From Naegleria gruberi (Eukaryota): a stretch of 64,000 nucleotides of DNA. Positions 14,453-64,000 of this stretch are shown one piece after another (the first letter of the stretch is position 1; each line of letters starts with the position of its first letter). Both the position numbers and the translations under genes were made by a program. The stretch lies in assembly GCA_000004985.1 (NCBI GenBank), contig GG738928.1. One strand, written 5' to 3'. The notes under the pieces were generated by a model, which was not told the DNA's origin, searched no databases, and saw only the letters and a program-made list of their open reading frames with translations.

Positions 14453-14525
14453 TGCCGACACCAGGGATCGAACCAGGGACCTTAAGATCTTCAGTCTTAC
14501 GCTCTCCCAACTGAGCTATGTCGGC
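14453..14525 (-). tRNA. tRNA-Phe (GAA)
   Basis: The reverse complement GCCGACATAGCTCAGTTGGGAGAGCGTAAGACTGAAGATCTTAAGGTCCCTGGTTCGATCCCTGGTGTCGGC folds as a canonical cloverleaf. The acceptor stem is perfect, the anticodon loop is CTGAAGA, and the T-loop is TTCGATC. Confidence 0.9.
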
Positions 14526-42253: not shown

Positions 42254-43567
42254 ATGTACAACAATAATAATAATTCATCCTTCTACTCTTCGGGTACAGG
42301 ATTTGTACCACCAACTCAGGGTTATTCCTATCAACAACCTCCTCCTATCAATACACAACCTCCTATCAATAATATGAATTCATCTTTTTCCAATCTTCCA
42401 AAAACATCCTATTATTCAGGTACAACAACAACAACAACAGCAGATCAAGCACAAAGAATTAGACAATTACAAGCTGATTCTATAATTAAAAGATTTCATA
42501 ATGCTAAAATTGTTTCTACATTAGATAATAATGTACTTGATGTTCCTATTACATTAAAGAATGGACAACAAATTACTTTCCGTGTTTTAATGCAACAAGC
42601 CTTCCCACAACAACCACCTCTAATTACTACTCTCTGTACAATTAAACATGCAAATGTTGATTTAAGTGGTTACGTTGTTCATCCACAATTAAGACAATGG
42701 ACTCAACAATCAAGTCTTGGAGATGTTTTGACAATAGTTTTTAGAGATTTTATCAACACTCCTCCAAACTATATTTCTGATGAATTACCAAAGAATCATA
42801 TCACAAAAACAACAGCAAATATTGGTATGATTACTCCTCCAATCGGATCTACTCCTCCTCCTGGTTTAAATCAAACATCTCCATTGATGTTTAATCAACC
42901 TCCAATTAATCAACCTCCAATGACAAGTTCAACTTATCCTCCAAATAATACAATTCCATCCATGACAAATCCAATGACTAATTCAATGACAAGTACTGTC
43001 CCAACAAATACTCAACCAACTTTCCAAGATTCCTCTTGTATGATTCCTTTACCAAATATTCCAACAAACTTTTCTGAAATTTCTTTACTTGAAGGAGTTG
43101 ATGCCGTTCAAAAATTACTTGATAGTGAAGAATTATTCAAGCAGTTTATTGAAAACTTATCATTTACAAGAGAAGCAAAGAATATTTATCAAGATTTGAG
43201 AAATGCCAATATGGATATTGCCAAGAGAAGTGTAGAAAAAGATGAACAAATCAATAACACTCTCAAAGAACAAATTACTCAAAAAAAGGCAGAAGTTGAC
43301 AGACTTTTGGATCAAGTTCAATTTTTACAAAATAAGCAACAACAACTTTCTCAAAGATATGCACCAACTCAATTATTAATTATGTTAAATGAAAAGATTG
43401 ATGAAGTTGACAATGAAAGTGAACAAGTAGGAGATTTGTTCCTTGATAGTCCAACAGCTGAACCACATCAAGTGAAAGAATTTATTGACAAGTATTTGGA
43501 AAAGAGAACACTTTATTACTTGAGAAGACAAAAACGTGATCGTTTCAAGGATACCTATATTAAATAA
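42254..43567 (+). CDS. ESCRT-I subunit Vps37-like (Mod(r) domain) with an N-terminal UEV-like domain and Q/N/P-rich linker
   Basis: The C-terminus has coiled coils and ...EFIDKYLEKRTLYYLRRQKRDRF, matching the Vps37 Mod(r) end motif (FLE.FLEKR...HLRR...EKL). The N-terminal beta-rich domain (ITFRVLMQQAFPQQPPLITTLCTIKH) resembles the UEV fold. ATG at 42254; the track start is TTG. Confidence 0.55.
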   Translation: MYNNNNNSSFYSSGTGFVPPTQGYSYQQPPPINTQPPINNMNSSFSNLPKTSYYSGTTTTTTADQAQRIRQLQADSIIKRFHNAKIVSTLDNNVLDVPITLKNGQQITFRVLMQQAFPQQPPLITTLCTIKHANVDLSGYVVHPQLRQWTQQSSLGDVLTIVFRDFINTPPNYISDELPKNHITKTTANIGMITPPIGSTPPPGLNQTSPLMFNQPPINQPPMTSSTYPPNNTIPSMTNPMTNSMTSTVPTNTQPTFQDSSCMIPLPNIPTNFSEISLLEGVDAVQKLLDSEELFKQFIENLSFTREAKNIYQDLRNANMDIAKRSVEKDEQINNTLKEQITQKKAEVDRLLDQVQFLQNKQQQLSQRYAPTQLLIMLNEKIDEVDNESEQVGDLFLDSPTAEPHQVKEFIDKYLEKRTLYYLRRQKRDRFKDTYIK

Positions 43568-43754: not shown

Positions 43755-44906
43755 TTAAAGAGTGAATCCAAGATTCTTTTGAATGTCAGCAACATTCCAG
43801 AACAAAACTTTGCCGTCCAAACCAGCGGTAACAAACTTGCTAACCTTACCACCTTCAACCTTGAAAGCTTCAATACAGTTAATAACATTGTGGTGACGAG
43901 TTTGTGGAGCATCGCTCTTTTCAGCATTTTGAGAACCAACAGTTGAAGTAGCTTGGAATTTTAAGAAAGCACTTCTGACACCAACACCTTGAGCCGCACC
44001 AGTCTTCTTCATTTCATCACAAGATCCCTTCAAAACCCACTTGTTTCCTTCCAAAGCAAAAGCATATGGAGCAAAATCATAACCAGCAGCAACAAAGACC
44101 TTGTCGGAAAGGAACAAACCACAATAGAATGGTAACTTTTCATGACGAACAACTTGAGATTCAATTGGTTGAGCATCAGCAACAGATTGATCTTGTGAAG
44201 CATAATCAACAAATTGAACAGTAGAATCGTGTCCAATGAAAGCTAACCATTTACCATTTGGTGAGAATTGAACAGAGTGAACCCATCCCTTTGATGTATA
44301 TTCAACAAAGACATCACCAAACTTTAACTTGTTATCGGCACTTCTCTTACCGTCCACTTCCTTGAGGTATGTATTAAAAGTACGAGCTTTCATGTCACTA
44401 CTACCAGTAGCTAATGTGTTAATAGTTGGATGCCAAGCAACAGATTTGATGGTTGATTTGTGTTTCTTAATCATCTTTGAAATGTACCACTTGTTTTCAG
44501 CTTCATAGAAACAAACAGCAATCATCTTGGAAGCACTACCAACAGCAAACTTTTCTTCGTTTGGAGACCACTTACAACAAGTAGCTGCTTTAGTAAGACG
44601 AAGTAAAACAAGTGTTGGATTCCATTTCTTTTCCTTTTCATTATATTCCCATACGTAGGCATTACGATCTTGAGCACAAGATAAAATCTTGTTAGATTTT
44701 GGTGCCCAATCAATACCAGTTACATAGTGGTCATGATCAGTCAATGTATGTTCTCTTTCCCACTTTTCGAAATCTTCACTACCATTAGTCTTATAGATGT
44801 GAATTTCACTGTTTCCTGGCGAGACAGCAACTCTTGATTTATCACCATTCCAAGCCATACAGCTGATAGCTTGAGCGAGGACTTTTTGGGTGTTGAGCAA
44901 GGACAT
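43755..44906 (-). CDS. Arp2/3 complex subunit 1 (ARPC1/p41-ARC), WD40
   Basis: The full length is alignable to ARPC1 (ISCMAWNGDKSRVAV...HDHYVTGIDWAP.SN.I.SC.QDRNAYVW..., the WD repeats and the C-terminal LDGKVLFWNV). ATG at 44906 after a poly-A leader. Confidence 0.85.
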   Translation of the reverse strand: MSLLNTQKVLAQAISCMAWNGDKSRVAVSPGNSEIHIYKTNGSEDFEKWEREHTLTDHDHYVTGIDWAPKSNKILSCAQDRNAYVWEYNEKEKKWNPTLVLLRLTKAATCCKWSPNEEKFAVGSASKMIAVCFYEAENKWYISKMIKKHKSTIKSVAWHPTINTLATGSSDMKARTFNTYLKEVDGKRSADNKLKFGDVFVEYTSKGWVHSVQFSPNGKWLAFIGHDSTVQFVDYASQDQSVADAQPIESQVVRHEKLPFYCGLFLSDKVFVAAGYDFAPYAFALEGNKWVLKGSCDEMKKTGAAQGVGVRSAFLKFQATSTVGSQNAEKSDAPQTRHHNVINCIEAFKVEGGKVSKFVTAGLDGKVLFWNVADIQKNLGFTL

Positions 44907-45812: not shown

Positions 45813-48128
45813 ATGGACAAAAGTTTATTCATCTCTTTCATTGAATGTCGATGGACGAAACTAAGGTCAATTCTTGTCTCTACAACCTTTCCAAAAAACA
45901 ATAGTTATGGAAATATAGAATTTTCAAAGATGCAAAAAATGCTCACACCTTCTCATTCACTATCACTTCTCCATTTGATGCTCACTAGTTGGTTTCTAAC
46001 AATCTTGTTATTCTATACGAAACCTATCGTCTCATTATCCTCCTCTTCTTCTTCATCTTTTATTCAATACATTTCCAGCAACAAAATTAATGAATTAAAT
46101 TCCTCTACCATTATTATCGGAGCAAATAATTTCATCAATTTATATCTATGGAAAGATTTAGAAATTTATTCGATAGGTCAATTACTTAATTCCACTAATT
46201 CTCAGAAAGAATTAAACTTTTTTTCATATGACACGAATGGAATTTCAGAAAATGATATGATTAGAATGATTCGAATACTTCAATCTAATAATTTTGCACT
46301 CATTCCATCCAAATGGAAGTTTAAACAAGTTGTCATGCAGAAAAACACCGAATGTCTCTATGGAAGTTTATTCGAAAGGTTTGATATTCTAATTGGGACT
46401 GCTGATGAGTTTGCTGAGAGAGTGAGATTGAGTAGAGGTCATCAACAGAGGAGAAAGAAATCTTTCGAATATTTAAATCCTAATGATTTTTATATCATTC
46501 CACTTTTTCCTAGAAATTTCTATATTGTTACAATGGAAAATTACAATCATTTGAATTTATTCGAAAGTGAATTTTACAATTATTTCATTTCGAATAGTAG
46601 ATACAATCAAACAAATTGTCTAGAAAGTATCAAACATGATTCGTCCATTATCGAACATTTACATGGAATTCTCTATTTCACATCTTTACAAATTGACTGG
46701 AGTTTACAATATTTCAATATTTCACACATTCCTTACAATAATTCAATAATTTCCAACTTTATATTTTCAAATCTCTTTGAAAGTAATGACTATATTTGGA
46801 ATTATTCCAAAGTTTCACAACACTTGTGGGAATCCACTTGTTATCATTGCACAACCACTTCATGTGTGGCTGAGAATTGGACATGGGGTGATTCATTGGA
46901 TTTGACAGTTGTGTGTAGCGGAGTTTTATTCTATGCAATTCTATTAATTTCTGGAGCTTTTAAATCTCCGGTTGTGTATAGAAAATATGGAATTATATTT
47001 TTGTCACCATTTCTAAATATGGGATTATTTACAGCCTTGTTGAATGCATTTAATAATTCATGTATTTCTCTGGGAACTATATTTTCAAATTATGCTGCTT
47101 GTTTGATGAATATTATTTATATTTGTACTGTTTTGAGATATTTCTATTTAAGGAATTTATATAATTTTGTTAAGAGTTCAAAATATCCATCTTTGTACAA
47201 ATATTTGGCTGGTGAAATGTTTGGATTCTTCTTTACAATTATCATTCCAATGATTTTTACTTTAATATTTCCAATTACTATAATTGTACTTGTTGGCGAT
47301 TACAATGCTGATTTATTTAATTTGGCAAATAATTTAATAATTGCAATTTTGGCAGCTGTTTCATGCATTGCTGGATTTTCAACTTTAATTTTTGATGCTA
47401 TTAAGAATAGAAAGATAATTTCCAAATTTGGATTTTCAAGATTTTTCATATTTGAAGATCCTTACTTTTTTAGAATTGACTTGTTATCACTTCCAATAAT
47501 TTTCTTATTACTTGTTTTATTGGCAATTATTTTCATGATTGCACCAATTTATGTTCTAATTGTCAGATTCCTAATTGGGATGACATTATATCTCTTATTT
47601 GGAACAAGTTTAGTAATGTTAATTGTTGAACAGTTGAAATTTAAAACATTTAGAATTAAATCAGCAAATGATGAAGTTATTGACAAGAATCAACAAGAAG
47701 ATATTACTAAGGAATATATTGAAATGATTAAGGAAAATAAGAATGAAGATTTGTGTCAACTTTTTAAATTATACTGTCAAAAGTCATTGGCATTGGAAAA
47801 TTTAATGTTGATGGATGTATTGATTGAAAAAAAGAGAAAATCAACAAGTATTTCAGTAGAGGATATGAAACATATTAAGGAAGAATTTTTAATTTCCTAT
47901 TCTGCGTATGAAGTTAACATTTCCTCACAAGTGAGACAAAATTTCGAACAAAACTTGCAAGATGCTTTATCGAAGAATGAAGCAAAGGTCAACAATGAAA
48001 TTCTCACAGATTTAATGGTGGAAATTGAGACAAATATCAAGTCAACATTTATGCGTTTTGCCAAGACAAGTGAATTTTTGGAATGGCAAGAAATTTACTC
48101 TTTACAAAAAGAAAGAGCAGTTTTGTAA
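45813..48128 (+). CDS. 7TM receptor with a Cys-containing extracellular N-terminal domain and a C-terminal RGS domain (7TM-RGS architecture)
   Basis: Seven hydrophobic helices between residues ~370 and 600. The C-terminus matches the RGS-box pattern (LFKLYCQKSLALENLMLMDVLIEKKR...EEFLISYSAYEVNISSQVRQN...IETNIKSTFMRFAKTSEFL). ATG at 45813; the track start is TTG. Confidence 0.6.
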   Translation: MDKSLFISFIECRWTKLRSILVSTTFPKNNSYGNIEFSKMQKMLTPSHSLSLLHLMLTSWFLTILLFYTKPIVSLSSSSSSSFIQYISSNKINELNSSTIIIGANNFINLYLWKDLEIYSIGQLLNSTNSQKELNFFSYDTNGISENDMIRMIRILQSNNFALIPSKWKFKQVVMQKNTECLYGSLFERFDILIGTADEFAERVRLSRGHQQRRKKSFEYLNPNDFYIIPLFPRNFYIVTMENYNHLNLFESEFYNYFISNSRYNQTNCLESIKHDSSIIEHLHGILYFTSLQIDWSLQYFNISHIPYNNSIISNFIFSNLFESNDYIWNYSKVSQHLWESTCYHCTTTSCVAENWTWGDSLDLTVVCSGVLFYAILLISGAFKSPVVYRKYGIIFLSPFLNMGLFTALLNAFNNSCISLGTIFSNYAACLMNIIYICTVLRYFYLRNLYNFVKSSKYPSLYKYLAGEMFGFFFTIIIPMIFTLIFPITIIVLVGDYNADLFNLANNLIIAILAAVSCIAGFSTLIFDAIKNRKIISKFGFSRFFIFEDPYFFRIDLLSLPIIFLLLVLLAIIFMIAPIYVLIVRFLIGMTLYLLFGTSLVMLIVEQLKFKTFRIKSANDEVIDKNQQEDITKEYIEMIKENKNEDLCQLFKLYCQKSLALENLMLMDVLIEKKRKSTSISVEDMKHIKEEFLISYSAYEVNISSQVRQNFEQNLQDALSKNEAKVNNEILTDLMVEIETNIKSTFMRFAKTSEFLEWQEIYSLQKERAVL

Positions 48129-50101: not shown

Positions 50102-53100
50102 ATGTTCAAAGGTACACCTTCAACAAAGGAACAACAACAACAATTGGAAGAATCAGCTGCCAACAAACGTAAACGGTCATCCTTTGATGATGATTCCGAT
50201 TCTGATTCATCATCTTCGGATGAAGAAACTTTTGCATCATCATCATTAGCCTTTAATAATCATAATAATTTAATGAATGATGAACAAGTTAATGAACAAT
50301 CAAAAGCCTCCTCTTCATCAATTATTGATAATGATCAGAAAGAAGATGAAGAGAATACAATGAAATTATCGGAATTTAAAAAGACACTTCTCTCTAAATT
50401 ATCTAAACAATATACAACAATTATTACACAGAATGAATTGGATATTCTTGAACAACAACTTCTTTCTAATCCATTTGCATTTTCATCATCAGAATGGGAT
50501 GAATTAATTGGTCAATATCAATATAGATCCTACATTGGACAATTTAATCATCAAATTGATAAAAGAAATACTGATTTACCATCACAATATTCAGTTTTAT
50601 TAAATAATCAATATATTAATGTGAATGCATTGGAAAAAACAAGACATTTGAGATGGAAACGATCAGAATTTTTGAAATTAGGAGAAGAATCATGGTTAGA
50701 TTGGATTAGAGAGGAGGAATTACATTTTATGGAAGGAAAATACTCAGATCATCAACAACGAGATGTTATTAAATGTATATATGAAAGAGCACTTTTATGG
50801 GAAAATTATTCTTGTAAGTTGTTATATAGTAATTAATTGTTTGATATTTATTCCATTGTTGATTATTCATGTTCTATTAAATAGACAAGACATTAAGAGC
50901 TAATTATTGTAAATTCATGTTAAAATATTATGAAAGTAATAGTAGTATTATTGATGATAGTTTCAATCTGGTATTTAATTTAGTGGGATATGATGAGGAA
51001 ATTTGTAATTTATATTTGAAATATTTAAAGCAATATGAAAAAAATCATTCCAAAATTAGAAATATCTATGCAAACTTGTTAAAACATCCAAATCATCAAT
51101 CTGTTTTCACAATTTGGAAGGAATATAATCAATGGGAAAAGAATCCATCAGATGATGAAATGAAAGCCAGATATATTCACGCACTCAAACAAGTTGAAGA
51201 GAGAATTTCACTTCAAAAACAAACACAAGATGAATCTTCATATTTGGAACAAATTAATTTTGAAATGAAAAAGTACAATAATTGTAAAGAATTACTAAAA
51301 TCAAAGGAATTTAATGAAATGTCTTTGGAGGATTTGAATGAAATTGGTTCTATTTTAAAGGAGAGAATTACATTACTTTTAAAGAAAGTAGCAAGTGAGA
51401 GTAATAATTCTGAAACTCTATGGAATATGCTATTGAACTTTTTAATAAGTGAAAAGGATGAATTTATTTCAACTAATAATGAAACATTGTCCTCTTCAAA
51501 TGGAATATTCAATACTATTAAGACTTTACATGAAATAATCAAGACAAATTTCAAGTACTTGGATAATAGTCATCTTTCAATTTACTTGCAAAATATTGAA
51601 CAAGTGGATGATAATTTATTGAACGCTCTTCATCTTCACATGACTTGTTGGGTTGCCTTTAAGAATCTTTCATGGAATTCTGAAATGCACAAGTACTTGA
51701 TACTAAGTTTGGAGATTTTACATGAATTATCTTCCAGCAAGTTGGAATATTCTTCAAGTTATTTGAAACTTATCAATGATATCATGTTTAACAAATCAAT
51801 GCATGCTCTCAATTCATTTGCCAATGATTTGACATTTAATGATTACTATCAAGTATTCTCAACCTTCTGTTCATGTCTTACTAGACTCAATAGAAAGCTA
51901 TACTTCAATATCAGTACCAGATCGGAACCAAATGAAAATTTAAATTCTGCACTGGTAGAAGTATCACAAGCAGCTGATCAATCATTCCAAACATTCTCCG
52001 ATTACTTGGATCAATACTTTAAAATGGACACATCTCGTGTGCATTATTTTGAACTTCAATATGCTGAATTTTTATTGGAGAATGGACAATCTCAGAGAGC
52101 TTTAGAATTCTTTGAAAATGTTCTAATGAATAATGAAATATTCAAGAAGGAACTTAGAGCATGGCAAGATTTTATTCAATTCATGGAGAAAATTAATTGG
52201 TTTGAAATTAATAATGAAAATCCACTCGAAACTAAACATGAGAAGATATCAGCTACCTACGATCTTGGAATTCGTTCAATGGATAATCCAAGCACTAAAC
52301 AAATTCTTGCCAAATTGTGGTTGTACTATGAAAAGGTCAATTCCAATTCTGTACATTCCATTATTAAGGCTGAAAATATTTTGAAACAATTTAAAGATTC
52401 ACAAAAGAAAAAGATGAAGGAAAAATCCAACACTAAGGAAAAGTCAAATATTAAGGAAAAATCCATCATCAAGGAAAAATCAAATGATGATAAGGGAAAG
52501 ACTGAAAAGAAACCAAAGGAAGAAAAGAAAACAAAGGTAAAAGAAGATAGACCAAAGAAGAAGGTTAAATTCGCTACTACTGAAGAAGAATTAGTGGAAC
52601 AAGTACCAAGTGAAAATACCAACATTATCAGCAGTGAAATCTCAAATGTTGAACAACAATTGGATCATGATGTTGAAATGAAAGAATTGGAAAATATCAA
52701 ATCATCAACAGAAAAAACAATGGAAACAAAATCAACAAGTAATGAAACAAATCAACCACAAACAGAACCACCAAAGAAAATCAAGAAGGAATCATCTGAT
52801 GAAAAGCCTTGTTTAAATGTTGTTGTTTGGAATTTACCATTCAGTATGAAAGAACAAGATATACGTGAGCTATTCCAACAACATTCAATTCAAGCAAAGA
52901 GAATAACTCTCATCACTCGTGAGAATGGATCCTCTAAGGGAATGGCATTTGTTGAATTGGAAAGTCATGAAATTATTCAACAAGCCATTGAAAAACTTAA
53001 TAATTATGGAATTGATAAAGAAGGAAATTTACTTAAAGTAGCTCAAGCAGAAACAGCCAAAATGAAAAAATTATTGAAAAAGCAAAAAGATATTACTAAT

Positions 53101-53373
53101 AAGAAGTTTGTACACAATTCAACTCCTAAATTACATATTAAGGAATCAGATACAAGACAAAAGAAGCCAAACATGTTTAAACCAAGATCAGTTCCAAAGA
53201 GAAATGAAACAATTTCATCATCATCATCATCAAGTGGTAATAATAATCAACAAACAGCAAGTGGCAGTGGCAGTGATTCAGTAGTTACTAATAACACTGA
53301 AAATCAATCACAACCATCAGCTGCTGCAGTGGGTGGTTTGAGTAATGATGATTTTAAAAAGTTTTTAAGATAA
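50102..53373 (+). CDS. HAT/TPR-like repeat protein with a C-terminal RRM (SART3/Prp24-like?) and a Lys/Glu-rich linker. Two exons (50102..50813, 50885..53373), 71-nt intron.
   Basis: The donor GTAAGT follows ...LWENYS and the acceptor AATAG is in phase, linking the 244-aa and 818-aa ORFs. The RRM reads LNVVVWNLPFSMKEQDIRELF...KGMAFVELESHE. Confidence 0.5.
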
Positions 53374-53596: not shown

Positions 53597-54919
53597 ATGG
53601 ACAAACGACAAAGACAAGATTTTGAAAATCCTCAATTAATTAATTCGGAAGAGAAAGCAAAAAAGGTTGCAAAAGTCCAACAAGATGTATTTTCAGATGA
53701 TATTTGTTTTGAAATAATTTCAATGCTTGATGATTCGTGGTTTATTTTAAATACTTGTTCATTAATTTCAAAACAATTCTTTAAGGTGATCAAGGAACGT
53801 TCAAAACTTGCTATTCAATTTCAAAAGAAATTTACAGAGAAACGAGTTAAATTATTCATGAAAAGTCAATTTATGAATAGTATTGTTAAAGTTAAATTTT
53901 CTAGTCGGTTGCTTCAAGCCATAGAAACCCCCAAATTGATAAGTGCAATGAAACAATTAACATCACTTAATATTTATGACAATGGAATTGGTGATGAAGA
54001 AATCAAATACATCAGTGAAATGAAACAATTAACATCACTTAATATTGGTTACAATAGAGTTGGGGATGAAGGAGCCAAATATTTAAGTGAAATGAAACAA
54101 TTAACATCGCTTAATATTGGTTACAATAGAGTTGGTATAGAAGGAGCCAAATATTTAAGTGAAATGGAACAATTAACATCACTTAATATTGGTTACAGTA
54201 GAATTGGTATAGAAGGAGTCAAATACATCAGTGAAATGAAACAATTAACGTCACTTAATATTTCTAAAAATGAAGTTAGCAATGAAGGAGCCAAATATTT
54301 AAGTGAAATGAAACAATTGAGATTACTTAATATTTATCACAATGAAATTGGTGATGAAGGAGTCAAATATTTAAGTGAAATGAAACAATTAACATCACTT
54401 CATATTGGTTACAATAGAATTGGTCTAGAAGGAGTCAAATTGATAAGTGAAATGGAACAATTGACATCACTTGATATTTCTGAAAATGAAATTAGTGATG
54501 AAGGAGCAAAATATTTAAGTGAAATGGAACAATTAACATCACTTAATATTGATTACAGTAGAATTGGTCTAGAAGGGGTCAAATACATCAGTGAAATGAA
54601 GCAATTAACATCACTTACTATTGCTTACAATAGAATTGGTATAAAAGGAGCTAAATTGATAAGTGAAATGAAACAATTGAGATTACTTGATATTTCTAAC
54701 AATGAAATTAGTGATGAAGGAGCCAAATATCTAAGTGAAATGAAACAATTGATATCACTTTATATTTCTGAAATTGGAATTGGTATAAAAGGAGTCAAAT
54801 ACATCAGTGAAATGAAACAATTGAGATTACTTGATATTACTCGCAATAGAATTGGAAAAGAAGGAGCTAAATTGTTAAGTGAAATGAAACAATTGACACC
54901 ACTCTGTTTGGAATTGTAA
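53597..54919 (+). CDS. F-box-like / RNI-type LRR protein with about 16 near-identical 24-aa leucine-rich repeats
   Basis: N-terminal DICFEIISMLDDSWFILNTCSLISKQFFKVIKE, then repeated MKQLTSLNIGYNRIGDEGAKYLSE units, which are 72-bp tandem units at the DNA level. Confidence 0.6.
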   Translation: MDKRQRQDFENPQLINSEEKAKKVAKVQQDVFSDDICFEIISMLDDSWFILNTCSLISKQFFKVIKERSKLAIQFQKKFTEKRVKLFMKSQFMNSIVKVKFSSRLLQAIETPKLISAMKQLTSLNIYDNGIGDEEIKYISEMKQLTSLNIGYNRVGDEGAKYLSEMKQLTSLNIGYNRVGIEGAKYLSEMEQLTSLNIGYSRIGIEGVKYISEMKQLTSLNISKNEVSNEGAKYLSEMKQLRLLNIYHNEIGDEGVKYLSEMKQLTSLHIGYNRIGLEGVKLISEMEQLTSLDISENEISDEGAKYLSEMEQLTSLNIDYSRIGLEGVKYISEMKQLTSLTIAYNRIGIKGAKLISEMKQLRLLDISNNEISDEGAKYLSEMKQLISLYISEIGIGIKGVKYISEMKQLRLLDITRNRIGKEGAKLLSEMKQLTPLCLEL

Positions 54920-55318
54920 AACAAATAAAACACAAATAAAAGCTTACTGATATTCTTCATCTAAAATTATGAGATAGCAACGATGCTTAGAAATCTTGAA
55001 TGAACTAGAAAACTCCAAAGAAGAAACAACAAAATGAGTCTGGTAATACTTGTTTTTCTTTTCTATCGTTCTTTTGATTCAAGTTTGAGTTGAAATCTTC
55101 TATTGTTGTATGTGTTTGGATCAATTTTTGAAAGTGGCAATTCCTAAAAATATAAATAGATGAAGAATTTTGAATGGAATGAAATTGTCTCTTGGTCAAT
55201 TAAAAAAAAAGAAACCTACTGCAATAAATCCTATGATCGTCATGTACATTGATTTATTGAGCCCTCTTGTCTTTTGATAGTTATACAACATTGGCAAGAG
55301 GGCATTTGTTACAAAGTC

Positions 55319-55368
55319 NNNNNNNNNNNNNNNNNNNNNNNNNNNNNNNNNNNNNNNNNNNNNNNNNN
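55319..55368. other. Assembly gap (50 N)
   Basis: Run of N; isolated N at 45609 and 55391. Confidence 1.
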
Positions 55369-56216
55369 CACCTAAATGGATTAGTAGTTTNTGATATGTT
55401 CAATAAAAATCAAACTTTCTACATTTTTCTTACAATATTAGACTTAATATATGGAATTTGTTAAAAGAAATAATGACTGTTTCAAATAATTGCATTCAAT
55501 ATTAAAATTACAATTGAAGAAATGTAAAATCACAATAAGACATTCACAATTCAAGCTCACCAACAAGTAACATTGTGAAAGTCAAAGAGAGTTGAGTTAC
55601 TAATTTCCCTATTTATAAAGGTGGAAAACAAGGTTTTTAATTGATACTTAGTATCAATTTTGATATAATTTCTCACAAGTTGGAAAATTACAGTTCTATT
55701 CATCTATTTTTCTATTTATGATACTAATATCCGGGAATGATGTATTTAAATTGTTGTACTGAAATTGGCACATAGGGTAGCTTACAATCGCTTGTAAAAC
55801 ATTCCACTCACTCGCAAGCAATTAAAACCAAATGAATCACTTCACAACTTTTTCAAAGAAATCAATTCAAATAAGCTCCATAATTTAAAAAACATCTTTC
55901 CTATGTGAAATTCTCCTACTCCTAGCTCTCATAGGATGAGTTCCAATATTTGGTCAAGTGGTTGTTGTCCTTAGTGAGAAGAAGGTTATTACTAATTTAG
56001 TTTATTGGTTATTGAAATTGTAATTTAACAATATTAAATATAAATATTATGATCTACTAAATCCACTACAAATACCAATTTTAGAATATAATTTCATTGC
56101 TCTAACCAATTATATCCACAACCCTTACATATTGAAATAACAAATATAAACACATTTACACACATGTTAAAATAGTTCAATAATAATTTCATCATGAAAA
56201 ACAATTATAGAACAAA

Positions 56217-56711
56217 TTATTTATTTTTTTTAAATAATTCTAAAATATTTTTAAAATAATAAAAAATTATTAAAATTAAATTTGGTAATAAAGATAATTT
56301 TACAAATATATTATTATTATAAACAGTTAAAAATAATAAATTATAAACATATAAATAACTAATTAAAGTAAATAAACCAATAAATAAATTTAAAATAAAT
56401 TTCTTATTAAAATAAAAAATATAAAATAATAAAATTAAAATTGAAATTATAAAATAAATAAAACTTTCAAGATGAAATTGTCTAACAAGTATTTTATCCA
56501 AACTTGGTAATAATTTTAAATTCATTGGTAATGGTTTTGTAAAATAAATTCCCAAAGTAAAAAATAAACTTGTAAAAAAGTGTAAAATCATGAATAAATA
56601 TTCTTTCATTAATATTTTTGTATTTCCTATTAAAAGATATAAAAATAATGTTAAATATATTAAAATAAATGATGAAAATGTAAATATTGAAAGACTTGTT
56701 ATGGAAAACAT
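56217..56711 (-). CDS. Putative small polytopic membrane protein (164 aa) encoded in an extremely AT-rich block (~10% GC); may be spurious
   Basis: ATG ORF made of very hydrophobic Phe/Leu/Ile/Tyr-rich segments. Composition alone can generate such ORFs. Confidence 0.25.
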   Translation of the reverse strand: MFSITSLSIFTFSSFILIYLTLFLYLLIGNTKILMKEYLFMILHFFTSLFFTLGIYFTKPLPMNLKLLPSLDKILVRQFHLESFIYFIISILILLFYIFYFNKKFILNLFIGLFTLISYLYVYNLLFLTVYNNNIFVKLSLLPNLILIIFYYFKNILELFKKNK

Positions 56712-57124
56712 TTTAAAAGATTATGATAATTATATATTATTAATGATGATGATGGTAATGATGGTATGAATGATATGATAACGATGGTGATGATTGTATT
56801 TTAATACTATAATAATTTAATCAGTGATGAAGTATGATGATTGTATAAATTATCTTTAGAGTCAAAGATGATATGATGTTCCGAATTTTTTTTAATATTA
56901 TTTTCATCAACAATCAAATTTTTCCATTTCATACAACAAACTTGAACCTTAATAATACTACAACAACAACTAGTGGCACAACAATCAAACATTCAATTTG
57001 TAATTCATTCATATTCTATCGATTGATTGATTAATTAATTCATACTATTTTATTATCATTTTACAAATATATACTACTACTACTATATATATATTAACTT
57101 GTTTACCATATATTTCCATTATAA

Positions 57125-58862
57125 TTAAAGATATTCTTGTAAAATAGATGGTTTAAAACGTATAACAATAACCGAAATATTATCAGTACTACCCTTATCA
57201 TAGGCTAATTCACGTAAAGTAATAGAGGCTTGAACAGGATCATTTTCATATCTGACACTTGTTACAACTTCCTCCTCACTAACATAATCCCATAAACCAT
57301 CACAAGCTACAACAATAAATTCATCTCTATCAAACATAAAATCCATAACCATTGTACTTGCATCTGATATAATATAGGGATGAAGTGATTTATCACCAAT
57401 TGCTCTCGTAATTGCTAAACATGCATTAACACGATTACCATATATAGTACCACCTGCATCTTTAACTCTTCTACGTTCATCAATTTCACTTGGTCTATGA
57501 TCAACTGTTAATCTAATAGGTTCACCACTTCTACATAATACAATTCTAGAATCACCTACATTACCAATATAGGCTATTTTTTCATCTATATATGGTATAT
57601 ATATAATTGAGGCTGTACTTCCATCTCTATCATTTCCTTTACATACATTTTCATTAATTTCTAAAAATGTTTCACGTATTAAAAGTGGAATTACTTCACG
57701 TTTTGAAAGTGAATGTAAACAAATTTCATCAATTGATTCTTCTGTTGTTTTTTGTTCTCTTTCTTTATATTTTAAATGTTCTCTCAATTTACATAATAAT
57801 AAATTACTCTTTTCAATAGCTAATTCAATCAATTCTGAATATCTCATTGTATATATTTCTTCTCTTTCTTTTTCATTTAATAATCCATAATAACTTTCTA
57901 TATTTATATTATTTAATATTGAACTTAAATCATATGAATCATTATATCCATTCTTATGAGAATTATTAGAATTATACATATTATGAGAATGATTCATATT
58001 AGAATTATTCATATTAACATCTAAATCTTGTAATAATTTCTTAATATCTAAAAATTGTTCATAAATATTTAATTTTTCCTTAAATAAAACATGTAAATGT
58101 TCAGAAACATATTTAGAAGTATTTGAACCAACATGTCCATCACTTGTTATCTAATTGAGCATAATCATGTTGTCTAAATGTTAATTCACATACAAGTGCA
58201 TCTTCCATTGTTGATCTTCTTCCTTGTTTTTCAGCATAACCTGATAATAACCAATCATTTTCTAATAATTCAGATTGAATAGGTTCAACACGTTGTTGAT
58301 TACCTTTGTTTTTTTGTGCACGTCTATCAGCCTTTCTTTGATTCCTTTGTGAAGCCATTCTTTCTATAGCTTCATAGGTTTGACTACTTGGTGATGATGA
58401 TTGTAATGTTGTATTATTACTACTAATCACTGTTATTGTTTGTGAATGTGTTGTTGTTGTTGGTGATGATGAAGAGGATGAAGAGGATGAAGAGGATGAT
58501 GAAGTAGATGAAGATGATGAGGCTACTGATGATAATGATAGATTTATATTTTTAGGCTTTGTTTTAGGTGAATCATCGGAAATTGTTGGTGAATCAATGA
58601 GTGGTGAATCACTATCCATTAATGATGATGATGAAGAAGAAGATGAATTAGTATCAATAGTTGTAACTGATGGAGAATCATCAGTAATAATAACATTATT
58701 TGGTGATTGATCAAATATTTCCTCATTATTATTCTTGTTATTAACTCCTTCCATTATATTAATAATGAGTGGTGATTTTGCATCGGCAGAATCTTCTATC
58801 AGTTGATTAAAATTTAAATTAATATTATCATTGTTGGGTCCTTTCTTTTTGCTTTCATTCAT
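57125..58862 (-). CDS. Protein phosphatase 2C (PP2C/PPM) with a long Ser-rich N-terminal extension. There is an apparent +1 frame break near 58140 between the ...RRSTMEDA... and DGHVG motifs.
   Basis: The upstream ORF ends ...GYAEKQGRRSTMEDALVCELTFRQHDYAQLDNK*. The downstream ORF, re-translated here in the +1 frame, begins DGHVGSNTSKYVSEHL... and continues through GNVGDSR and DG..D to the stop. The two ORFs are the two halves of one PP2C domain. Confidence 0.65.
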
Positions 58863-58981
58863 TTTTTTATTTTGAATTTAATTTTTATATTTGATTTATC
58901 TCGTTAACACAATTCGAACAATTCTAAGTACGACGATGAGCAAATAAGAAAATCATTTTAATAAACAAAAATTGTAAAAAT

Positions 58982-60541
58982 TTACAAAGATTCATAGGCA
59001 CTACCAGTAGTACTACTTGTTGGATCGACTGTAGATAATTGGAAGTACTTTCTTGCCAATTGATACCACAAAGCAATGAACATGACAAGATATGAAATCA
59101 AGTCAATTGAAAGAGATAAACCTTCAATCCATTTAGCTCTATGTGAAACTGGAATAGCAAATGAAATTGAAACAATGAGTGGTAAACTAATGAACCATAA
59201 ACTATATAATAAACCAATAACCTTATAGAATACCTTCTTCAATTTGTTAGTTTCTTCTTGATGAGTCTTGAATAAAACAAAGATAAAGAAAGCCATAGCA
59301 GGAATTCTCATAACACTAATAATAATACCTGGAATAGTATCATAAATATAATCTTCAGTATTAACAACAAATATTAATTCAATTTGAGCCCAAGCATATA
59401 AAGCAATATAGAAAACACCAAAGAAAATCCAAACACCAACAGTTTGTTTAAAGTAACGAATATATGAAGTAGTAATAGTCCAACCAGAAGCAAGTAAATA
59501 TAACAAGACTAACATTAAAAAGTCACCTAATAATTTAAGACCAACTGCCAAATCATCAAAGAATGGAATACCAACACCATCAGCTCCATAAACAAACAAG
59601 TGAATCATTTCAACAACTCTACCCAACCAATAAACAACTAAACTTGAATAAAAAACTCTAATAATTAAATGGAATGATTTGTGTCTAATCAATTGAACAA
59701 TTGAAATAATATAAGCAAATACCATAATTGTATAAAATGGAACAAAAGCAATATGAACTTCAAGAATACCTTGTCTATCCTTAGAGAATTGCTTAGTAAA
59801 GAAACCACCTGGATTAGTCCATTTGAAATCCAATTCAATATATTCTGGACCAGAATCTGTAACTTCTCTTTCACAAGCATCCAAAGCCATATACCATGTG
59901 TGAATACTAGCTGATTCATCAATCAAAATACTAAATTCAGGATAAGTATCAAGTGGGAATGTTTGTTTAGCAAACTTTCTCAGATGTGTGCAATTAACCT
60001 TTCCATTGTTTGAATTAATATAATTTTGCAAGGCTGGCCAATAACCAGATTCATCATCATATAACGAAACATAGAGATTTTTAAGAGCAGTTGGATCTTG
60101 TTTCTTAATATTATTTCTATTCAATTGTTATTATTATTATTGTTATGGTGATGATAGTAAAAAGAATTATGGTCGGTGGTAAGTGTTTGATCAAAAGGAA
60201 TTAGATTTTTTGATGAACCGAGATTTATAATCGGATGATGATGATGACGATAATAATTAACATATAAATTCGAATACAGCAGAGCGGAAGGTTAAATGAT
60301 GAAATAATATTAATAGTAAACATATTTGTGAGTTTAAATATACTTACAATTGCCAAGTAATATAACCTGGTTCCTTCATACCCATGTTATCAAAAACAAA
60401 TGAATCCAACCAAATCCATTGATGATTCAATGATTGTTTTTCAAAAGTAAAAGTGGTGAGTTTACCTTCAACAACACTATAAATTTGCAACAAAACCACA
60501 AGCGCTAAAAACACGCCAATAATCTTTGAGGCTGGTTTCAT
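58982..60541 (-). CDS. 7TM protein with a cleavable signal peptide and ~150-aa luminal N-domain (LUSTR/GPR107/GPR180-like topology). Two exons (60348..60541, 58982..60116), 231-nt intron.
   Basis: The signal peptide exon is MKPASKIIGVFLALVVLLQIYSVVEG. The donor CAATT|GTAAGT and acceptor AATAG are in phase. Seven predicted TM helices follow. Confidence 0.5.
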
Positions 60542-61319: not shown

Positions 61320-62552
61320 ATGGCTAAAAAGAAGAATAATAATAAGAATAAGAATTCAGCCTCTTCGGCAACAACACCAGTTTCACCAGTGAGTGAAGTC
61401 AGTGAGGATAATAGTATTGAAGAAACTGTTACATCATCAACAACAATGGAAGAGGAACAAACAGTATCAACAACAACTCAAGAATCTACAATTGATGAAG
61501 CCTCCACAATAACTTCTACCACTGAACAACAAGAAGAAGAAGAAGCCTCTGATAAAATTCAACAACCTGAAGAAGTAAATTCATCATCTACAACAACAGC
61601 CATTGTTACTGAAGGAATACCAACAACTAACACTGTTGAAACATCTGATTCTATTACTACTACTAATACTAATACTACTACTATTGATAATAACATTCCA
61701 ACAAGTAGTACAACAACAACAACAATTGAAGAAGAAGAAGAAAAAACAAATCAAAAAAGTGAAGAAGAAATTATAACAGAAGAAATTGAAAAATTAAAAG
61801 AAGATTTAACTGATCGTGTTAAAGTAGTAAGAGAAGAATTAGAATTACAATATGAAATTGAAATTAAAAAATTACAAATTGATCATCAAGAATCTTTAAA
61901 AAAACAATTAGATTTATATGAAAATAAGATTAATTCACTTGTTGAAACTCATAAATATGAAATTGAACAATTAAATGCTCAATTAAAACAAAAAGATGAA
62001 GAAAATTTAAATGAATTGGAAAATATTAAATTATTAGAAATTAAATTACAAGATCAATTAAATGAAAATAATTCTAAAGATTTAATAATTAATAATTTAA
62101 ATAATAATATTGAAAATTTAAATAATAATATTAATAATTTAAAAAATGAAATTGAAATTAAAAAATCTGAATTAAAAGAAAAAAATGAAAATTCAAATGA
62201 ATTAAATGAAACTATTAAAAAACATTTAGAAAAAATTCAAAATTTAGAAAGAGAAGAATTAAATTCATTACAAAAAATTAATCATTTAAATCAACAATTA
62301 AAAACAACAAGTGAAAAGAATTCTGAATATGAAAATAGAATTTTACAATTAGAAGAAGAATTAAAATCACAAAAAGAAAATGAAACAATTATTTTACATA
62401 AATATTATCATCATGCTTTATTAGCTGTAAAATTAACTTTATCAAATATTAATTTTTCAGTTCCAGATTTGTTAGATGATTGTATTAAAGAACAAGTTAA
62501 AGAAGAAGATTTAGATTCTTGGATTACAAAGAAATTAGAATTACAAAATTAA
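61320..62552 (+). CDS. Coiled-coil protein with a Ser/Thr/Glu-rich N-terminus, 410 aa
   Basis: ATG ORF. Long heptad-rich ELKEK/NNLNN segment. Extreme A/T third-position codon usage. Confidence 0.5.
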   Translation: MAKKKNNNKNKNSASSATTPVSPVSEVSEDNSIEETVTSSTTMEEEQTVSTTTQESTIDEASTITSTTEQQEEEEASDKIQQPEEVNSSSTTTAIVTEGIPTTNTVETSDSITTTNTNTTTIDNNIPTSSTTTTTIEEEEEKTNQKSEEEIITEEIEKLKEDLTDRVKVVREELELQYEIEIKKLQIDHQESLKKQLDLYENKINSLVETHKYEIEQLNAQLKQKDEENLNELENIKLLEIKLQDQLNENNSKDLIINNLNNNIENLNNNINNLKNEIEIKKSELKEKNENSNELNETIKKHLEKIQNLEREELNSLQKINHLNQQLKTTSEKNSEYENRILQLEEELKSQKENETIILHKYYHHALLAVKLTLSNINFSVPDLLDDCIKEQVKEEDLDSWITKKLELQN

Positions 62553-63144
62553 ATATTTTAATATTTATAATTATAAATAAAAAAAAACAATTTAAATTAT
62601 TAAATCATAATGTGTTTTAAATTGTTGTTGATGAAGAAGAATATTTCAAAAGTTTAAATTATTATTAAATAAATTATTAATCAATTTTATCGTTCATTTA
62701 TTTGATCATCAGATTCATAACCAGATAATTGATTTAATTGATTATTATTATTTGGAAGTATAATTTCATTTAAAATTGTATTTAATTGATATTTTAATTC
62801 ATCTTTAAATTGTTGTTGATTTATAATATTTGAATTATTATTTAAATTATTATTTAAATTATTTAATTTAAATTCAATTAAATGATTTAAAATATTTTTT
62901 AAAAAAGCATGATCATTTCCATGTAAAGAAATAAATAAATTATTAAATAATTCTAATAAATTATTATTTAAATCAATATTACTATATATATTAATTAAAG
63001 TACGTAACCATAAATCTAATTCATCTTGAGATGAACAACTCCATTCACTAATTTCACCATTTATAGTTTTAATTTCAAATCTAAATTTTAAATCATTATT
63101 TTCATTTTGTAATCTTTTTATACTTGTTATACTATTTATATCTA

Positions 63145-63990
63145 TTATATTATATTTGGAATTTGAATCATTTCTATAATATAATTTACTTCTTTTAATT
63201 TTAACTTTGGTTTTTTGATATCCAATTCCATTTTTACGTTTTTTAAATAAATTCCTTTTAAATCATATTTAATTATATTTTCATTTTTTTTAAAATTATT
63301 AAAATTATTATTATTTAAATTATTACTATTTATATTATTATTATTTATATTAATAATTGTATTTCTTGTTTGTTGTAAATTATTATCACTAATAGTTTGT
63401 CTATGAGTATTAAATTCATTATTTTTAATTTCCGTAATTGGAGATTGTGGTGATAAATTTTCAATTTTTAAAATTGCATTTGATCTTTTTTTAACTATTT
63501 TTTTATGTTCCTGTATTATCTTGTTATCTACTGCTTCATTTCCTATATTTGTAGATGAAGAAGATGGTGGTGATGAATATTCTTCTTCTTCTTCTTCTTC
63601 TTTTTGATTTAAATTTAAATAACTTGGTAAATTAGATGGAAAACTAGCAGATAAACGTGAATTATTTAAATTATTATTTAAAGATGATGATGATGGTAGT
63701 GATGAATTATTATGAATAACAGAAAGTACTTTTTTAACTTTTCTAATAATAATTGGATTATTACTTGTTGATGTTGATGATGATGTTATTAAATTAGTAT
63801 TAGTATTATTATCTATTGTATCATCATCATCATTATCTAATATTATTGTAGATGATGTTGTTATATTATTAGTATTATTTATATTATCATAATGTTGATT
63901 GTTATTATCATTGTTACTAGAAGAATGAGAATCTGTATGTTCTTCTTCTTCTTGTGTTATTAATTGTCTTGTTGTAATTGTATCATTCAT
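63145..63990 (-). CDS. Asn/Ser-rich low-complexity protein (281 aa); gene possibly incomplete or with further exons
   Basis: ATG at 63990. Poly-N/poly-E tracts; no recognisable domain. Confidence 0.35.
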   Translation of the reverse strand: MNDTITTRQLITQEEEEHTDSHSSSNNDNNNQHYDNINNTNNITTSSTIILDNDDDDTIDNNTNTNLITSSSTSTSNNPIIIRKVKKVLSVIHNNSSLPSSSSLNNNLNNSRLSASFPSNLPSYLNLNQKEEEEEEEYSSPPSSSSTNIGNEAVDNKIIQEHKKIVKKRSNAILKIENLSPQSPITEIKNNEFNTHRQTISDNNLQQTRNTIININNNNINSNNLNNNNFNNFKKNENIIKYDLKGIYLKNVKMELDIKKPKLKLKEVNYIIEMIQIPNII

Positions 63991-64000
63991 TTGTGTGTTT

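What the first reader, a model, noticed from the sequence alone, without database searches (positions are those of the whole stretch)
53597..58100. Abrupt change in base composition and codon usage across the scaffold gap at 55319-55368
Genes to the left of the gap use mixed codons (CGA, CGG, GGA, GGG, CTG, GTG) and have ~32-35% GC. Genes to the right (PP2C, 7TM, coiled-coil, N-rich) use almost exclusively A/T-ending codons (TTA, AAA, GAA, GGT, AGA). Intergenic DNA there drops to ~10% GC. The switch coincides with an N-gap, so a chimeric join of contigs, even from different genomes, is possible. The alternative is a genuine isochore-like boundary.
Basis: seen in the sequence. Interest (0 to 1): 0.55.

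Follow-up and report, generated by a model that had tools for sequence, protein, structure and literature searches.

The report
AT-rich patch in Naegleria, not chimera
The drop in GC content near this scaffold gap is real, but it is ordinary local variation within the Naegleria gruberi genome: the step lies about 620 bp to the right of the gap, and genes on both sides have neighbouring counterparts on a single Naegleria fowleri contig.

Summary
The window is a Naegleria gruberi scaffold. The compositional shift exists: GC is 0.327 left of the gap and 0.244 right of it, and synonymous GC3 is 0.254 (far left), 0.200 (near left) and 0.074 (right).

It is not a step at the gap. The 600 bp on either side are alike (0.295 vs 0.282, p=0.66). 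The sharp drop is at about 55,990, inside contiguous sequence. The best whole-window change-point is at about 46.5 kb.

The "10% GC intergenic" stretches are mostly coding. One is a conserved small membrane-protein gene at 12% GC.

Foreign DNA is excluded for four of the five right-hand genes. PP2C, GPR180/TMEM145, the N-rich gene and the small membrane protein all have N. fowleri counterparts on one contig. The coiled-coil ORF is an orphan with no relative found.

Left-hand genes (a WD40 gene, a Mod_r gene, a 583-aa gene) map to the same N. fowleri neighbourhood, in the same order and orientation as the small membrane-protein gene right of the gap. This supports the join.

The N. fowleri counterparts are not AT-shifted, so the AT drift is specific to the N. 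gruberi lineage and is local. Its cause is unknown.

Verdict: genuine but ordinary compositional mosaic, low interest.

The parts
55319..55368 (.). 50-N scaffold gap. A second gap of the same length lies at 4450-4499, so the length is probably a placeholder.
   Evidence: The flanking 600 bp have 0.295 and 0.282 GC, so there is no step at the gap.
54920..55990 (.). Spacer of about 29% GC on both sides of the gap. It has no long ORF, no repeats and no Rfam hit.
55991..56740 (.). First very AT-rich segment (GC 0.144). Its left edge is the true sharp compositional step.
   Evidence: Segmentation; Fisher p=7e-9 across position 55,990.
56217..56711 (-). Conserved small multi-pass membrane-protein gene of 164 aa, with GC 0.121 and GC3 0.061. 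It is the counterpart of N. fowleri FDP41_006266.
   Evidence: The ORF is longer than in any of 1000 shuffles. Homologues are P0127 (E=2e-10) and P0128 (E=1e-6). Alignment A1 shows the motifs DKILVRQxHxE and TxYxNxIF. No Pfam family matches.
57125..58862 (-). PP2C phosphatase gene (NAEGRDRAFT_75757, C-terminal part), with GC3 of 0.08-0.12. A 23-nt deletion with frameshift near 58137 disrupts it.
58982..60541 (-). GPR180/TMEM145-family 7TM gene (NAEGRDRAFT_75759). Exon 1 is about 60344-60541 and exon 2 is 58982-60124. GC3 is 0.20.
61320..62552 (+). Orphan coiled-coil, low-complexity ORF of 410 aa with GC3 0.061. N. fowleri has only a 340-bp spacer at this position, so there is no counterpart.
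61741..63430 (.). Second very AT-rich segment (GC 0.150). It is mostly coding.
62762..63990 (-). N-rich gene, the counterpart of the N. fowleri 853-aa gene upstream of GPR180. The exon at 62762-63046 is conserved. GC3 is 0.046.
   Evidence: 38% identity, E=2e-18
53597..54919 (+). Leucine-rich-repeat protein gene, the last gene left of the gap. GC is 0.285 and GC3 is 0.193.
50102..53373 (+). RRM-containing protein gene (NAEGRDRAFT_75755, P0122). GC is 0.29 and GC3 is 0.16-0.25.
43755..44906 (-). WD40 gene, used as a left-hand synteny anchor. It is about 80% identical to the N. fowleri 385-aa gene that lies 5.2 kb from the small membrane-protein gene.
42254..43567 (+). Mod_r-domain gene (NAEGRDRAFT_75751, exact match to EFC36596). 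It is a second left-hand synteny anchor.
46470..46470 (.). Best single GC change-point of the whole window (0.335 to 0.265).

Best explanation
Both sides of the gap are authentic, neighbouring Naegleria gruberi chromosome sequence.

The window runs into a local AT-rich patch, which extends at least from 55,990 to 64,000 and is preceded by a milder decline from about 46.5 kb. In this patch, N. gruberi-lineage substitutions have been biased towards A/T at synonymous sites, in spacers and at replacement sites. Low-complexity Asn/Lys/Ile/Glu-rich coding sequence has also expanded there.

The result is a mosaic of about 30% GC gene cores and about 15% GC segments that are themselves mostly coding. 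The gap lies near this patch but is not its boundary.

Shown:
- the identity of the genome;
- the orthology and collinearity with N. fowleri;
- the position of the step;
- the lineage-specific shift in GC3 measured against N. fowleri counterparts.

Inferred:
- the cause. The leading candidate is regionally varying mutation bias, or weaker GC-biased gene conversion in a low-recombination region, rather than selection on codon usage;
- that the gap is small.
For: Identity of the genome:
- ORF 42254-43567 is an exact match to N. gruberi EFC36596 on a 160,583-bp scaffold.
- The PP2C, GPR180 and RRM genes are 100% matches to N. gruberi predicted proteins.

The right-hand genes are heterolobosean:
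- PP2C is 75% identical to N. fowleri, 57% to Willaertia and 55% to Acrasis.
- GPR180 is 71% identical to N. fowleri and 58% to Willaertia.
- The N-rich gene's C-terminal exon matches the N. fowleri 853-aa protein at E=2e-18.
- The small membrane protein matches N. fowleri FDP41_006266.

Synteny on N. fowleri contig VFQX01000051:
- The order there is PP2C, GPR180, 853-aa gene, 269-aa gene, 1870-aa WD gene, small membrane protein, BCNT, BBS7-like, 194-aa gene, WD385, Mod_r, 583-aa gene.
- The window carries the small membrane-protein gene right of the gap. It carries WD385, Mod_r and the 583-aa gene left of it, in the same order and relative orientation.
- The only break next to PP2C is explained by one inversion. 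Its breakpoint, between 56711 and 57125, lies in contiguous sequence.

Position of the step:
- There is no step at the gap, and there is one at 55,990.

Shared codon dialect and dinucleotide biases:
- The preferred codons have the same rank order on both sides.
- Both sides share CpG depletion and CpA/TpG excess.

Lineage-specific shift, measured as GC3 at residues identical between the two species:
- Left genes: 0.215 in N. gruberi against 0.336 in N. fowleri.
- Right genes: 0.112 against 0.280.
- N. gruberi left versus right: p=1.4e-6.
- The small membrane-protein gene has GC 0.121, against 0.320 in N. fowleri and 0.385 in a metagenome relative. Its FYMINK fraction is 0.54 against 0.41-0.42.

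A relative shows a similar mosaic:
- Willaertia loci have 8-14% GC kb-scale stretches carrying long ORFs next to 27-30% GC genes.
Against: - No reads or independent N. gruberi assembly could be examined, and the scaffold is not in the contig index. Continuity across the gap rests on synteny alone.
- The genes between the synteny anchors differ between the species. N. fowleri has BCNT, a BBS7-like gene and a 194-aa gene. The window has LRR, RRM, WD and RGS-7TM genes. Sequence could therefore be missing in the gap.
- Only 8.6 kb of the AT-rich side is visible, so its extent is unknown. Whether such patches recur across the N. gruberi genome is also unknown.
- The N. fowleri counterparts of the right-hand genes are also slightly lower in GC3 than those of the left-hand genes (0.280 vs 0.336, p=0.04). 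Part of the difference may therefore be gene-specific.
- The Gly GGA-to-GGT and Arg CGT shifts on the right are not explained by simple AT pressure.
Confidence: 0.8

Rival explanations
1. Within-genome misassembly: two N. gruberi contigs that are not truly adjacent were scaffolded together, and the gap marks a false join.
For: - A gap lies within 620 bp of the sharp GC step. With two gaps in 64 kb, that proximity has a chance probability of only about 4% (inference).
- The genes immediately flanking the gap in the window (LRR on the left, small membrane protein on the right) are not neighbours in N. fowleri. BCNT, which sits next to the small membrane-protein gene in both N. fowleri and a metagenome contig, is absent from the window.
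Against: - The anchors on the two contigs lie 5.2 kb apart on one N. fowleri contig, in consistent order and orientation. For a random join in a 29.5-Mb genome (size from PMC9928731) this has a probability of roughly 2e-4 (inference).
- The composition of the two contig ends is the same.
- The GC step lies within a contig, so the join cannot have created it.
Confidence: 0.07
2. Cross-species chimera or contaminant: the right-hand contig comes from another AT-rich organism, for example a dictyostelid, whose codon usage it resembles.
For: - GC3 of about 0.07, poly-Asn and poly-Ser tracts, and a TTA/AAA/GAA/GGT/AGA preference resemble Dictyostelium codon usage (plus my own knowledge of Dictyostelium).
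Against: - The best non-self hits for PP2C, GPR180 and the small membrane protein are Naegleria fowleri, followed by Willaertia and Acrasis. No amoebozoan is near the top.
- Four right-hand genes are collinear with one N. fowleri contig.
Confidence: 0.01
3. A foreign insertion, such as an endogenous giant-virus element or a horizontally transferred island with AT-rich codon usage, accounts for the AT-rich block or for part of it (for example the orphan coiled-coil gene).
For: - Viral insertions marked by GC shifts are reported in Acanthamoeba genomes, and mimivirus codon usage is described as a more extreme version of Naegleria's (PMC11702301).
- The coiled-coil ORF 61320-62552 has no counterpart in N. 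fowleri, which has a 340-bp spacer there. It has no Pfam hit either.
Against: - All the other genes in the block are cellular, with syntenic counterparts.
- No relative of the coiled-coil ORF was found in IMG/VR.
- No direct or inverted repeat copies (which would include terminal inverted repeats) turned up in a both-strand self-comparison limited to four query stretches (54920-55318, 55369-56100, 56000-57130 and 61800-63400) against the window.
Confidence: 0.03
4. The difference is gene-specific rather than regional: the right-hand genes happen to be weakly expressed and low-complexity, with no translational selection for C-ending codons.
For: - C-ending two-fold codons (TAC, ATC, AAC, GAC) fall from 14-31% on the left to 1-6% on the right.
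- The N. fowleri counterparts of the right-hand genes are slightly lower in GC3 as well.
- The spacer at 60128-61313 still has 0.293 GC.
Against: - Spacers next to the AT-rich genes are also depleted in GC: 56721-57127 has 0.216, and 55991-56216 lies within the 0.144 segment.
- Six consecutive genes share the shift.
- First and second codon positions and the amino-acid composition shift as well.
Confidence: 0.09

Closest known systems
Intragenomic compositional heterogeneity (isochore-like or GC3-heterogeneous domains) attributed to regional mutation bias or GC-biased gene conversion
   Same: GC3, spacer GC and amino-acid composition move together across several adjacent genes. The shift is lineage-specific relative to counterparts in a sister species.
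   Different: The scale seen here is kilobases, not hundreds of kilobases. The pattern is a mosaic rather than a plateau. The extent beyond 64,000 is unknown. No recombination or expression data are available.
AT-rich low-complexity expansion in AT-biased protist genomes (Dictyostelium, Plasmodium)
   Same: Asn/Lys/Ser/Thr runs encoded by AAT, AAA and TCA. GC3 is below 0.1. Coding regions fall to 12-22% GC.
   Different: Here it affects only a local block within a 33-35% GC genome. In those organisms the whole genome is affected.
Chimeric or contaminated scaffold joins in draft assemblies
   Same: A compositional change lies close to an N-gap in a Sanger-era draft scaffold.
   Different: Both sides belong to the same genus-level lineage and to the same syntenic neighbourhood. 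The step is not at the join.
Kb-scale AT-rich mosaic in Willaertia magna contigs (loci L001 and L003)
   Same: In a related heterolobosean, stretches of 8-14% GC carrying long ORFs sit next to genes of 27-30% GC, including around the PP2C counterpart.
   Different: Willaertia is AT-rich genome-wide (24.7% GC, PMC11702301). N. gruberi is 33-35% GC, so the patch stands out more.

Membership tests
Cross-genome chimeric join / contaminant contig | Genes on the two sides have different taxonomic affinities. | tested here: not met
   The right-hand PP2C, GPR180 and small membrane protein have N. fowleri as best non-self hit, followed by Willaertia and, for PP2C, Acrasis. The N-rich gene matches the syntenic N. 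fowleri 853-aa gene by direct comparison. The left-hand genes are exact N. gruberi proteins.
Cross-genome chimeric join / contaminant contig | The compositional discontinuity is located exactly at the contig junction. | tested here: not met
   The 600-bp flanks have 0.295 and 0.282 GC (p=0.66). The step is at 55,990, inside the right-hand contig.
Within-genome scaffold misjoin | The two sides map to unrelated places in a related genome. | tested here: not met
   Both sides map to N. fowleri VFQX01000051 at about 415-440 kb. The anchors nearest the gap lie 5.2 kb apart there, in matching order and orientation.
Within-genome scaffold misjoin | No read pairs or long reads span the join. | not testable with these tools
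   No read data are available, and the N. gruberi scaffold is absent from the contig index.
Isochore (classical sense) | A compositionally homogeneous segment longer than about 100 kb. | tested here: inconclusive
   Only 8.6 kb lies right of the gap, and it is not homogeneous: it alternates between about 0.15 and about 0.29 GC. The window ends at 64,000.
Isochore (classical sense) | GC3 of genes co-varies with the GC of flanking non-coding DNA. | tested here: inconclusive
   It holds around the small membrane-protein and PP2C genes (spacer 0.216, segment 0.144). It does not hold for the spacer at 60128-61313, which has 0.293 GC.
Endogenous viral element / horizontally acquired island | Foreign (viral or bacterial) gene content, with terminal repeats. 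| tested here: not met
   Four of the five genes have syntenic Naegleria counterparts. The orphan coiled-coil ORF has no IMG/VR relative. A both-strand self-comparison of four query stretches (54920-55318, 55369-56100, 56000-57130 and 61800-63400) against the window found only low-complexity matches and no repeat copies.
RIP-like repeat-induced point mutation | TpA/ApT above 0.89 together with (CpA+TpG)/(ApC+GpT) below 1.03. | tested here: not met
   The second index is 1.18-1.77 in the AT-rich segments, and the sequence is not repeated.
AT-rich regional centromere (Plasmodium or diatom type) | A gene-free, extremely AT-rich island. | tested here: not met
   Both AT-rich segments carry conserved coding sequence.

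The most novel reading that the evidence does not exclude
The block from about 56 kb onward could be the edge of a larger N. gruberi-specific domain of runaway AT drift. Such a domain might be recombination-cold, heterochromatic, or kept from recombining by the inversion seen relative to N. fowleri. Within it, conserved genes are pushed to 12% GC, low-complexity orphan genes arise, and genes begin to decay, as the frameshifted PP2C suggests. That would make it a compact natural experiment on mutation bias versus GC-biased gene conversion in a protist whose sexual cycle has never been observed.
Probability: 0.12. Interest if true: 0.45.

Novelty: new member of a known kind. Interest (0 to 1): 0.18.

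Why it matters
Mainly as quality control. The scaffold join need not be treated as contamination or as a cross-species chimera. The right-hand gene models, apart from the unplaced coiled-coil ORF, are genuine Naegleria genes.

Three secondary points:
- The region shows that N. gruberi can hold conserved protein-coding genes at about 12% GC. Gene finders trained on 35% GC exons may miss these. The 164-aa ORF's exact translation is not in the protein collection searched, and its best hits were N. fowleri and a metagenome protein rather than any N. gruberi model.
- It documents one inversion and turnover of gene content relative to N. fowleri.
- It gives a small, testable example of local AT drift.

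Tried and rejected
- Willaertia synteny. The PP2C locus (L001) and the GPR180 locus (L003) share only the query gene with the window, so they say nothing about the join.
- A homologue search with the left-hand RRM protein returned only the N. gruberi protein itself, because low-complexity words swamped the candidate list.
- Exact look-ups of N. gruberi proteins in the contig index failed. I could not extend beyond 64,000 or find an independent N. gruberi assembly.
- I looked for a gene spanning the gap, or for BCNT or BBS7-like remnants in the gap flanks. There was no ORF and no tblastn hit.
- Self-comparison of the gap flanks and the AT-rich segments found only low-complexity matches.
- I tested whether the AT-rich ORF downstream of PP2C is homologous to the AT-rich gene downstream of Willaertia PP2C. 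It is not. By eye, that Willaertia gene resembles the N. fowleri BBS7-like gene instead; no alignment was run.
- I proposed a 43-nt intron in PP2C and then rejected it. The supposed intron encodes residues conserved in N. fowleri. The real lesion is a 23-nt deletion with a frameshift.
- RIP indices were negative.
- Rfam and tRNA scans found nothing near the gap.
- A literature search found no description of isochore-like structure in N. gruberi.

Full report
**Identity of the window**

ORF 42254-43567 is an exact match to Naegleria gruberi EFC36596 / XP_002669340 on a 160,583-bp scaffold. The RRM gene at 50102-53373, the PP2C gene and the 7TM gene are 100% matches to N. gruberi predicted proteins NAEGRDRAFT_75755, 75757 and 75759. 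The window is therefore part of the Sanger-era N. gruberi NEG-M draft assembly. It contains two 50-N gaps, at 4450-4499 and 55319-55368, and two single Ns.

**Checking the observation**

The shift is real.
- GC is 0.327 left of the gap and 0.244 right of it.
- In the left 55.3 kb no 300-bp window falls below 0.20 GC. On the right, 23% of windows are below 0.18, with a minimum of 0.083.
- Per-gene GC3 has a median of 0.26 on the left (minimum 0.159) and 0.069 on the right (maximum 0.198), with Mann-Whitney p=1.5e-5.
CGA, CGG, GGG and GGC vanish on the right, and CTG (0.6% of Leu codons) and GTG (2.6% of Val codons) nearly do. TTA, GAA, AAT, CAA and GAT reach 76-98% of their amino-acid families.

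Three parts of the description do not hold.

First, the step is not at the gap.
- The 600 bp on either side of it have 0.295 and 0.282 GC (p=0.66).
- The sharp drop is at about 55,990 (0.284 to 0.147, p=7e-9), which is 620 bp inside the right-hand contig.
- The best single change-point for the whole window is at about 46.5 kb (0.335 to 0.265). The likelihood profile is nearly flat from 45 to 56 kb.
- GC3s forms a gradient: 0.254 far left, 0.200 in 42-55 kb and 0.074 on the right.
- The three genes nearest the gap on the left have 28.5-29.6% GC, not 32-35%.

Second, the "10% GC intergenic DNA" is mostly coding.
- The stretch 55,991-56,740 (GC 0.144) carries a 164-aa ORF. It has 167 stop-free codons, against 59 +/- 12 in dinucleotide-preserving shuffles, with 0 of 1000 shuffles reaching the observed value.
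- The stretch 61,741-63,430 (GC 0.150) holds the 3' half of the coiled-coil ORF. It also holds an exon of the N-rich gene that matches an N. fowleri protein at E=2e-18.

Third, the right side is a mosaic rather than a plateau. It alternates between about 0.15 and about 0.29 GC. The spacer at 60128-61313 still has 0.293 GC.

**Is the right side foreign?**

No, at least for four of its five genes.
- The best non-self hits for PP2C are N. fowleri (75%), Willaertia magna (57%) and Acrasis kona (55%), all Heterolobosea.
- GPR180/TMEM145 matches N. fowleri at 71% and Willaertia at 58%.
- On N. fowleri contig VFQX01000051, the 853-aa gene, GPR180 and PP2C are adjacent on one strand. This matches the window's N-rich gene, GPR180 and PP2C on the minus strand.
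- A full HMMER scan of 1.8 billion representative proteins with the 12%-GC ORF found two homologues: a JGI metagenome protein (E=2e-10) and N. fowleri FDP41_006266 (E=1e-6). They align end to end and share the motifs DKILVRQxHxE and TxYxNxIF.
- The preferred codon for each amino acid is the same on both sides, only more extreme on the right.
- CpG depletion and CpA/TpG excess are shared.
- The coiled-coil ORF remains an orphan. It has no Pfam hit, no N. fowleri counterpart and no IMG/VR relative.

**Is the join a misassembly?**

FDP41_006266 lies on the same N. fowleri contig, about 11 kb from GPR180. Comparing that locus (L004) with the window gives the decisive result:
- The small membrane-protein gene matches window 56714-56238, right of the gap.
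- The 385-aa WD40 gene, 5.2 kb further along the N. fowleri contig, matches window 44906-43755, left of the gap, at about 80% identity.
- The Mod_r gene matches 43567-42448.
- The 583-aa gene matches 41846-36501.
- Order and relative orientation are the same in both species.

Genes from both contigs therefore map to one small N. fowleri neighbourhood. For a random join in a 29.5-Mb genome (size from PMC9928731) I estimate the probability at about 2e-4 (inference).

The synteny break I first saw after PP2C is explained by a single inversion of the block from PP2C to the 1870-aa WD gene. Its breakpoint in the window lies between PP2C and the small membrane-protein gene (56711-57125), in contiguous sequence and not at the gap.

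There are caveats.
- N. fowleri has BCNT, a BBS7-like gene and a 194-aa gene between the two anchors. None of them is in the window.
- The window instead has LRR, RRM, WD and RGS-7TM genes there.
- That turnover is partly within contiguous sequence, so it is real. However, the 50-N gap may be a placeholder and could hide sequence.
- No reads or independent N. gruberi assembly were available.

**What the compositional shift is**

The N. fowleri counterparts are not AT-shifted.
- The two N. fowleri loci have 0.30-0.42 GC in every 1-kb window.
- GC3 is 0.375 for the 853-aa gene, 0.332 for GPR180, 0.302 for PP2C and 0.330 for the small membrane-protein gene.

GC3 at residues identical between the two species gives a controlled comparison:

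| Genes | N. gruberi | N. fowleri |
|---|---|---|
| Left (WD385 + Mod_r) | 0.215 | 0.336 |
| Right (small membrane protein, PP2C, GPR180) | 0.112 | 0.280 |

N. gruberi left versus right differs at p=1.4e-6. N. fowleri left versus right differs only at p=0.04.

The small membrane-protein gene has 0.121 GC, against 0.320 in N. fowleri and 0.385 in the metagenome relative. Its FYMINK fraction is 0.54 against 0.41-0.42.

The AT enrichment is therefore specific to the N. gruberi lineage. It affects synonymous sites, replacement sites and some spacers. It is stronger in this block than in the neighbouring genes.

That pattern fits regionally varying mutational pressure, or weak GC-biased gene conversion, better than selection on codon usage. 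C-ending two-fold codons, which I would expect selection for translation efficiency to favour (my own expectation, not tested here), are nearly absent on the right. The cause remains an inference.

There is no RIP signature. Both AT-rich segments are coding, which argues against a centromere-like island. Willaertia loci show the same kind of kb-scale mosaic, so such a structure is not unusual in this group.

**Why a gap is nearby**

The proximity of the gap to the AT-rich segment has a chance probability of about 4% (inference). It may reflect the known difficulty of cloning and sequencing very AT-rich DNA in Sanger libraries, which is established experience from the Plasmodium and Dictyostelium genome projects. 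The immediate gap flanks are about 29% GC, so this is only a suggestion.

**Verdict**

The cross-species chimera reading is rejected for the four right-hand genes with counterparts, and a misjoin is disfavoured by synteny. The "genuine compositional boundary" alternative is supported in a weaker, mosaic form. This is an ordinary feature of an AT-biased protist genome, with modest curiosity value and low interest.

Noticed in passing
window 58125-58150 (minus strand), within the PP2C gene 57125-58862: Compared with N. fowleri and Willaertia, the N. gruberi PP2C lacks 23 nt. These encode the conserved 'YESFVGIY' strand just before the DGHGG metal-binding motif. The frame is shifted, and the motif reads DGHVG. 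Both halves remain long stop-free ORFs, and JGI annotated only the C-terminal 240 aa as one model. This is either a recent pseudogene or split gene, or a consensus error.
   Followed up: partly
window 56217-56711 (-); L004 10001-10681; L006 148-654: An uncharacterised family of small membrane proteins (about 165-225 aa) with no Pfam family is conserved in N. gruberi, N. fowleri and a JGI metagenome eukaryote. In the latter two it sits convergently next to a BCNT-domain gene. The exact translation of the N. gruberi copy (12% GC) is not in the protein collection searched, and its best hits were not an N. gruberi model, so it may be unannotated.
   Followed up: partly
window 56711-57125 and beyond 64000; L002/L004 (N. 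fowleri VFQX01000051, about 415-430 kb): Between N. gruberi and N. fowleri there is one inversion of the block PP2C, GPR180, 853-aa gene (and probably the 269-aa and 1870-aa WD genes). Gene content between the small membrane-protein gene and the WD385 gene has also been completely replaced: BCNT, BBS7-like and 194-aa genes in N. fowleri, against LRR, RRM, WD and RGS-7TM genes in N. gruberi.
   Followed up: partly
L001 12089-13333 (Willaertia) vs L004 11664-14192 (N. fowleri): By eye, the very AT-rich gene (GC 0.157, GC3 0.033) just downstream of Willaertia PP2C resembles the N-terminal part of the N. fowleri BBS7-like gene (for example '...SQIISI..R..F.K.KI.LGVTF'). This hints that PP2C and this gene are old neighbours. 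No alignment was run.
   Followed up: no
window 34154-34272 (-), 14453-14525 (-), 8509-8581 (+): A dispersed 5S rRNA gene (100.8 bits) and two tRNA genes lie among the protein-coding genes. One of the tRNAs is tRNA-Phe(GAA).
   Followed up: no
window 36474-42000: This stretch is a GC-rich excursion (0.39-0.43 GC), caused by a gene with GC2 of 0.65 but GC3 of only 0.26. The amino-acid composition, not the codon bias, is responsible. The gene is the counterpart of the N. fowleri 583-aa gene. It shows that protein composition alone moves local GC by about 0.1 in this genome.
   Followed up: no
window 53950-54900: The LRR gene is a near-perfect array of 24-residue (72-nt) repeats ('ISEMKQLTSLNIgyNrIGdEGAKY'). 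It belongs to a family that is highly expanded in Naegleria, and it is a plausible obstacle to assembly close to the gap.
   Followed up: no
window 61320-62552 (+): An orphan 410-aa ORF has a Thr/Ser/Glu-rich N-terminal half and an Asn/Lys/Glu-rich coiled-coil C-terminal half. It sits where N. fowleri has only a 340-bp spacer. It has no Pfam hit and no IMG/VR relative.
   Followed up: partly
right-hand genes 56217-63990: Gly codon choice switches from GGA (55%) to GGT (68%), and Arg CGT rises from 9% to 22%. Simple AT pressure does not predict this.
   Followed up: no
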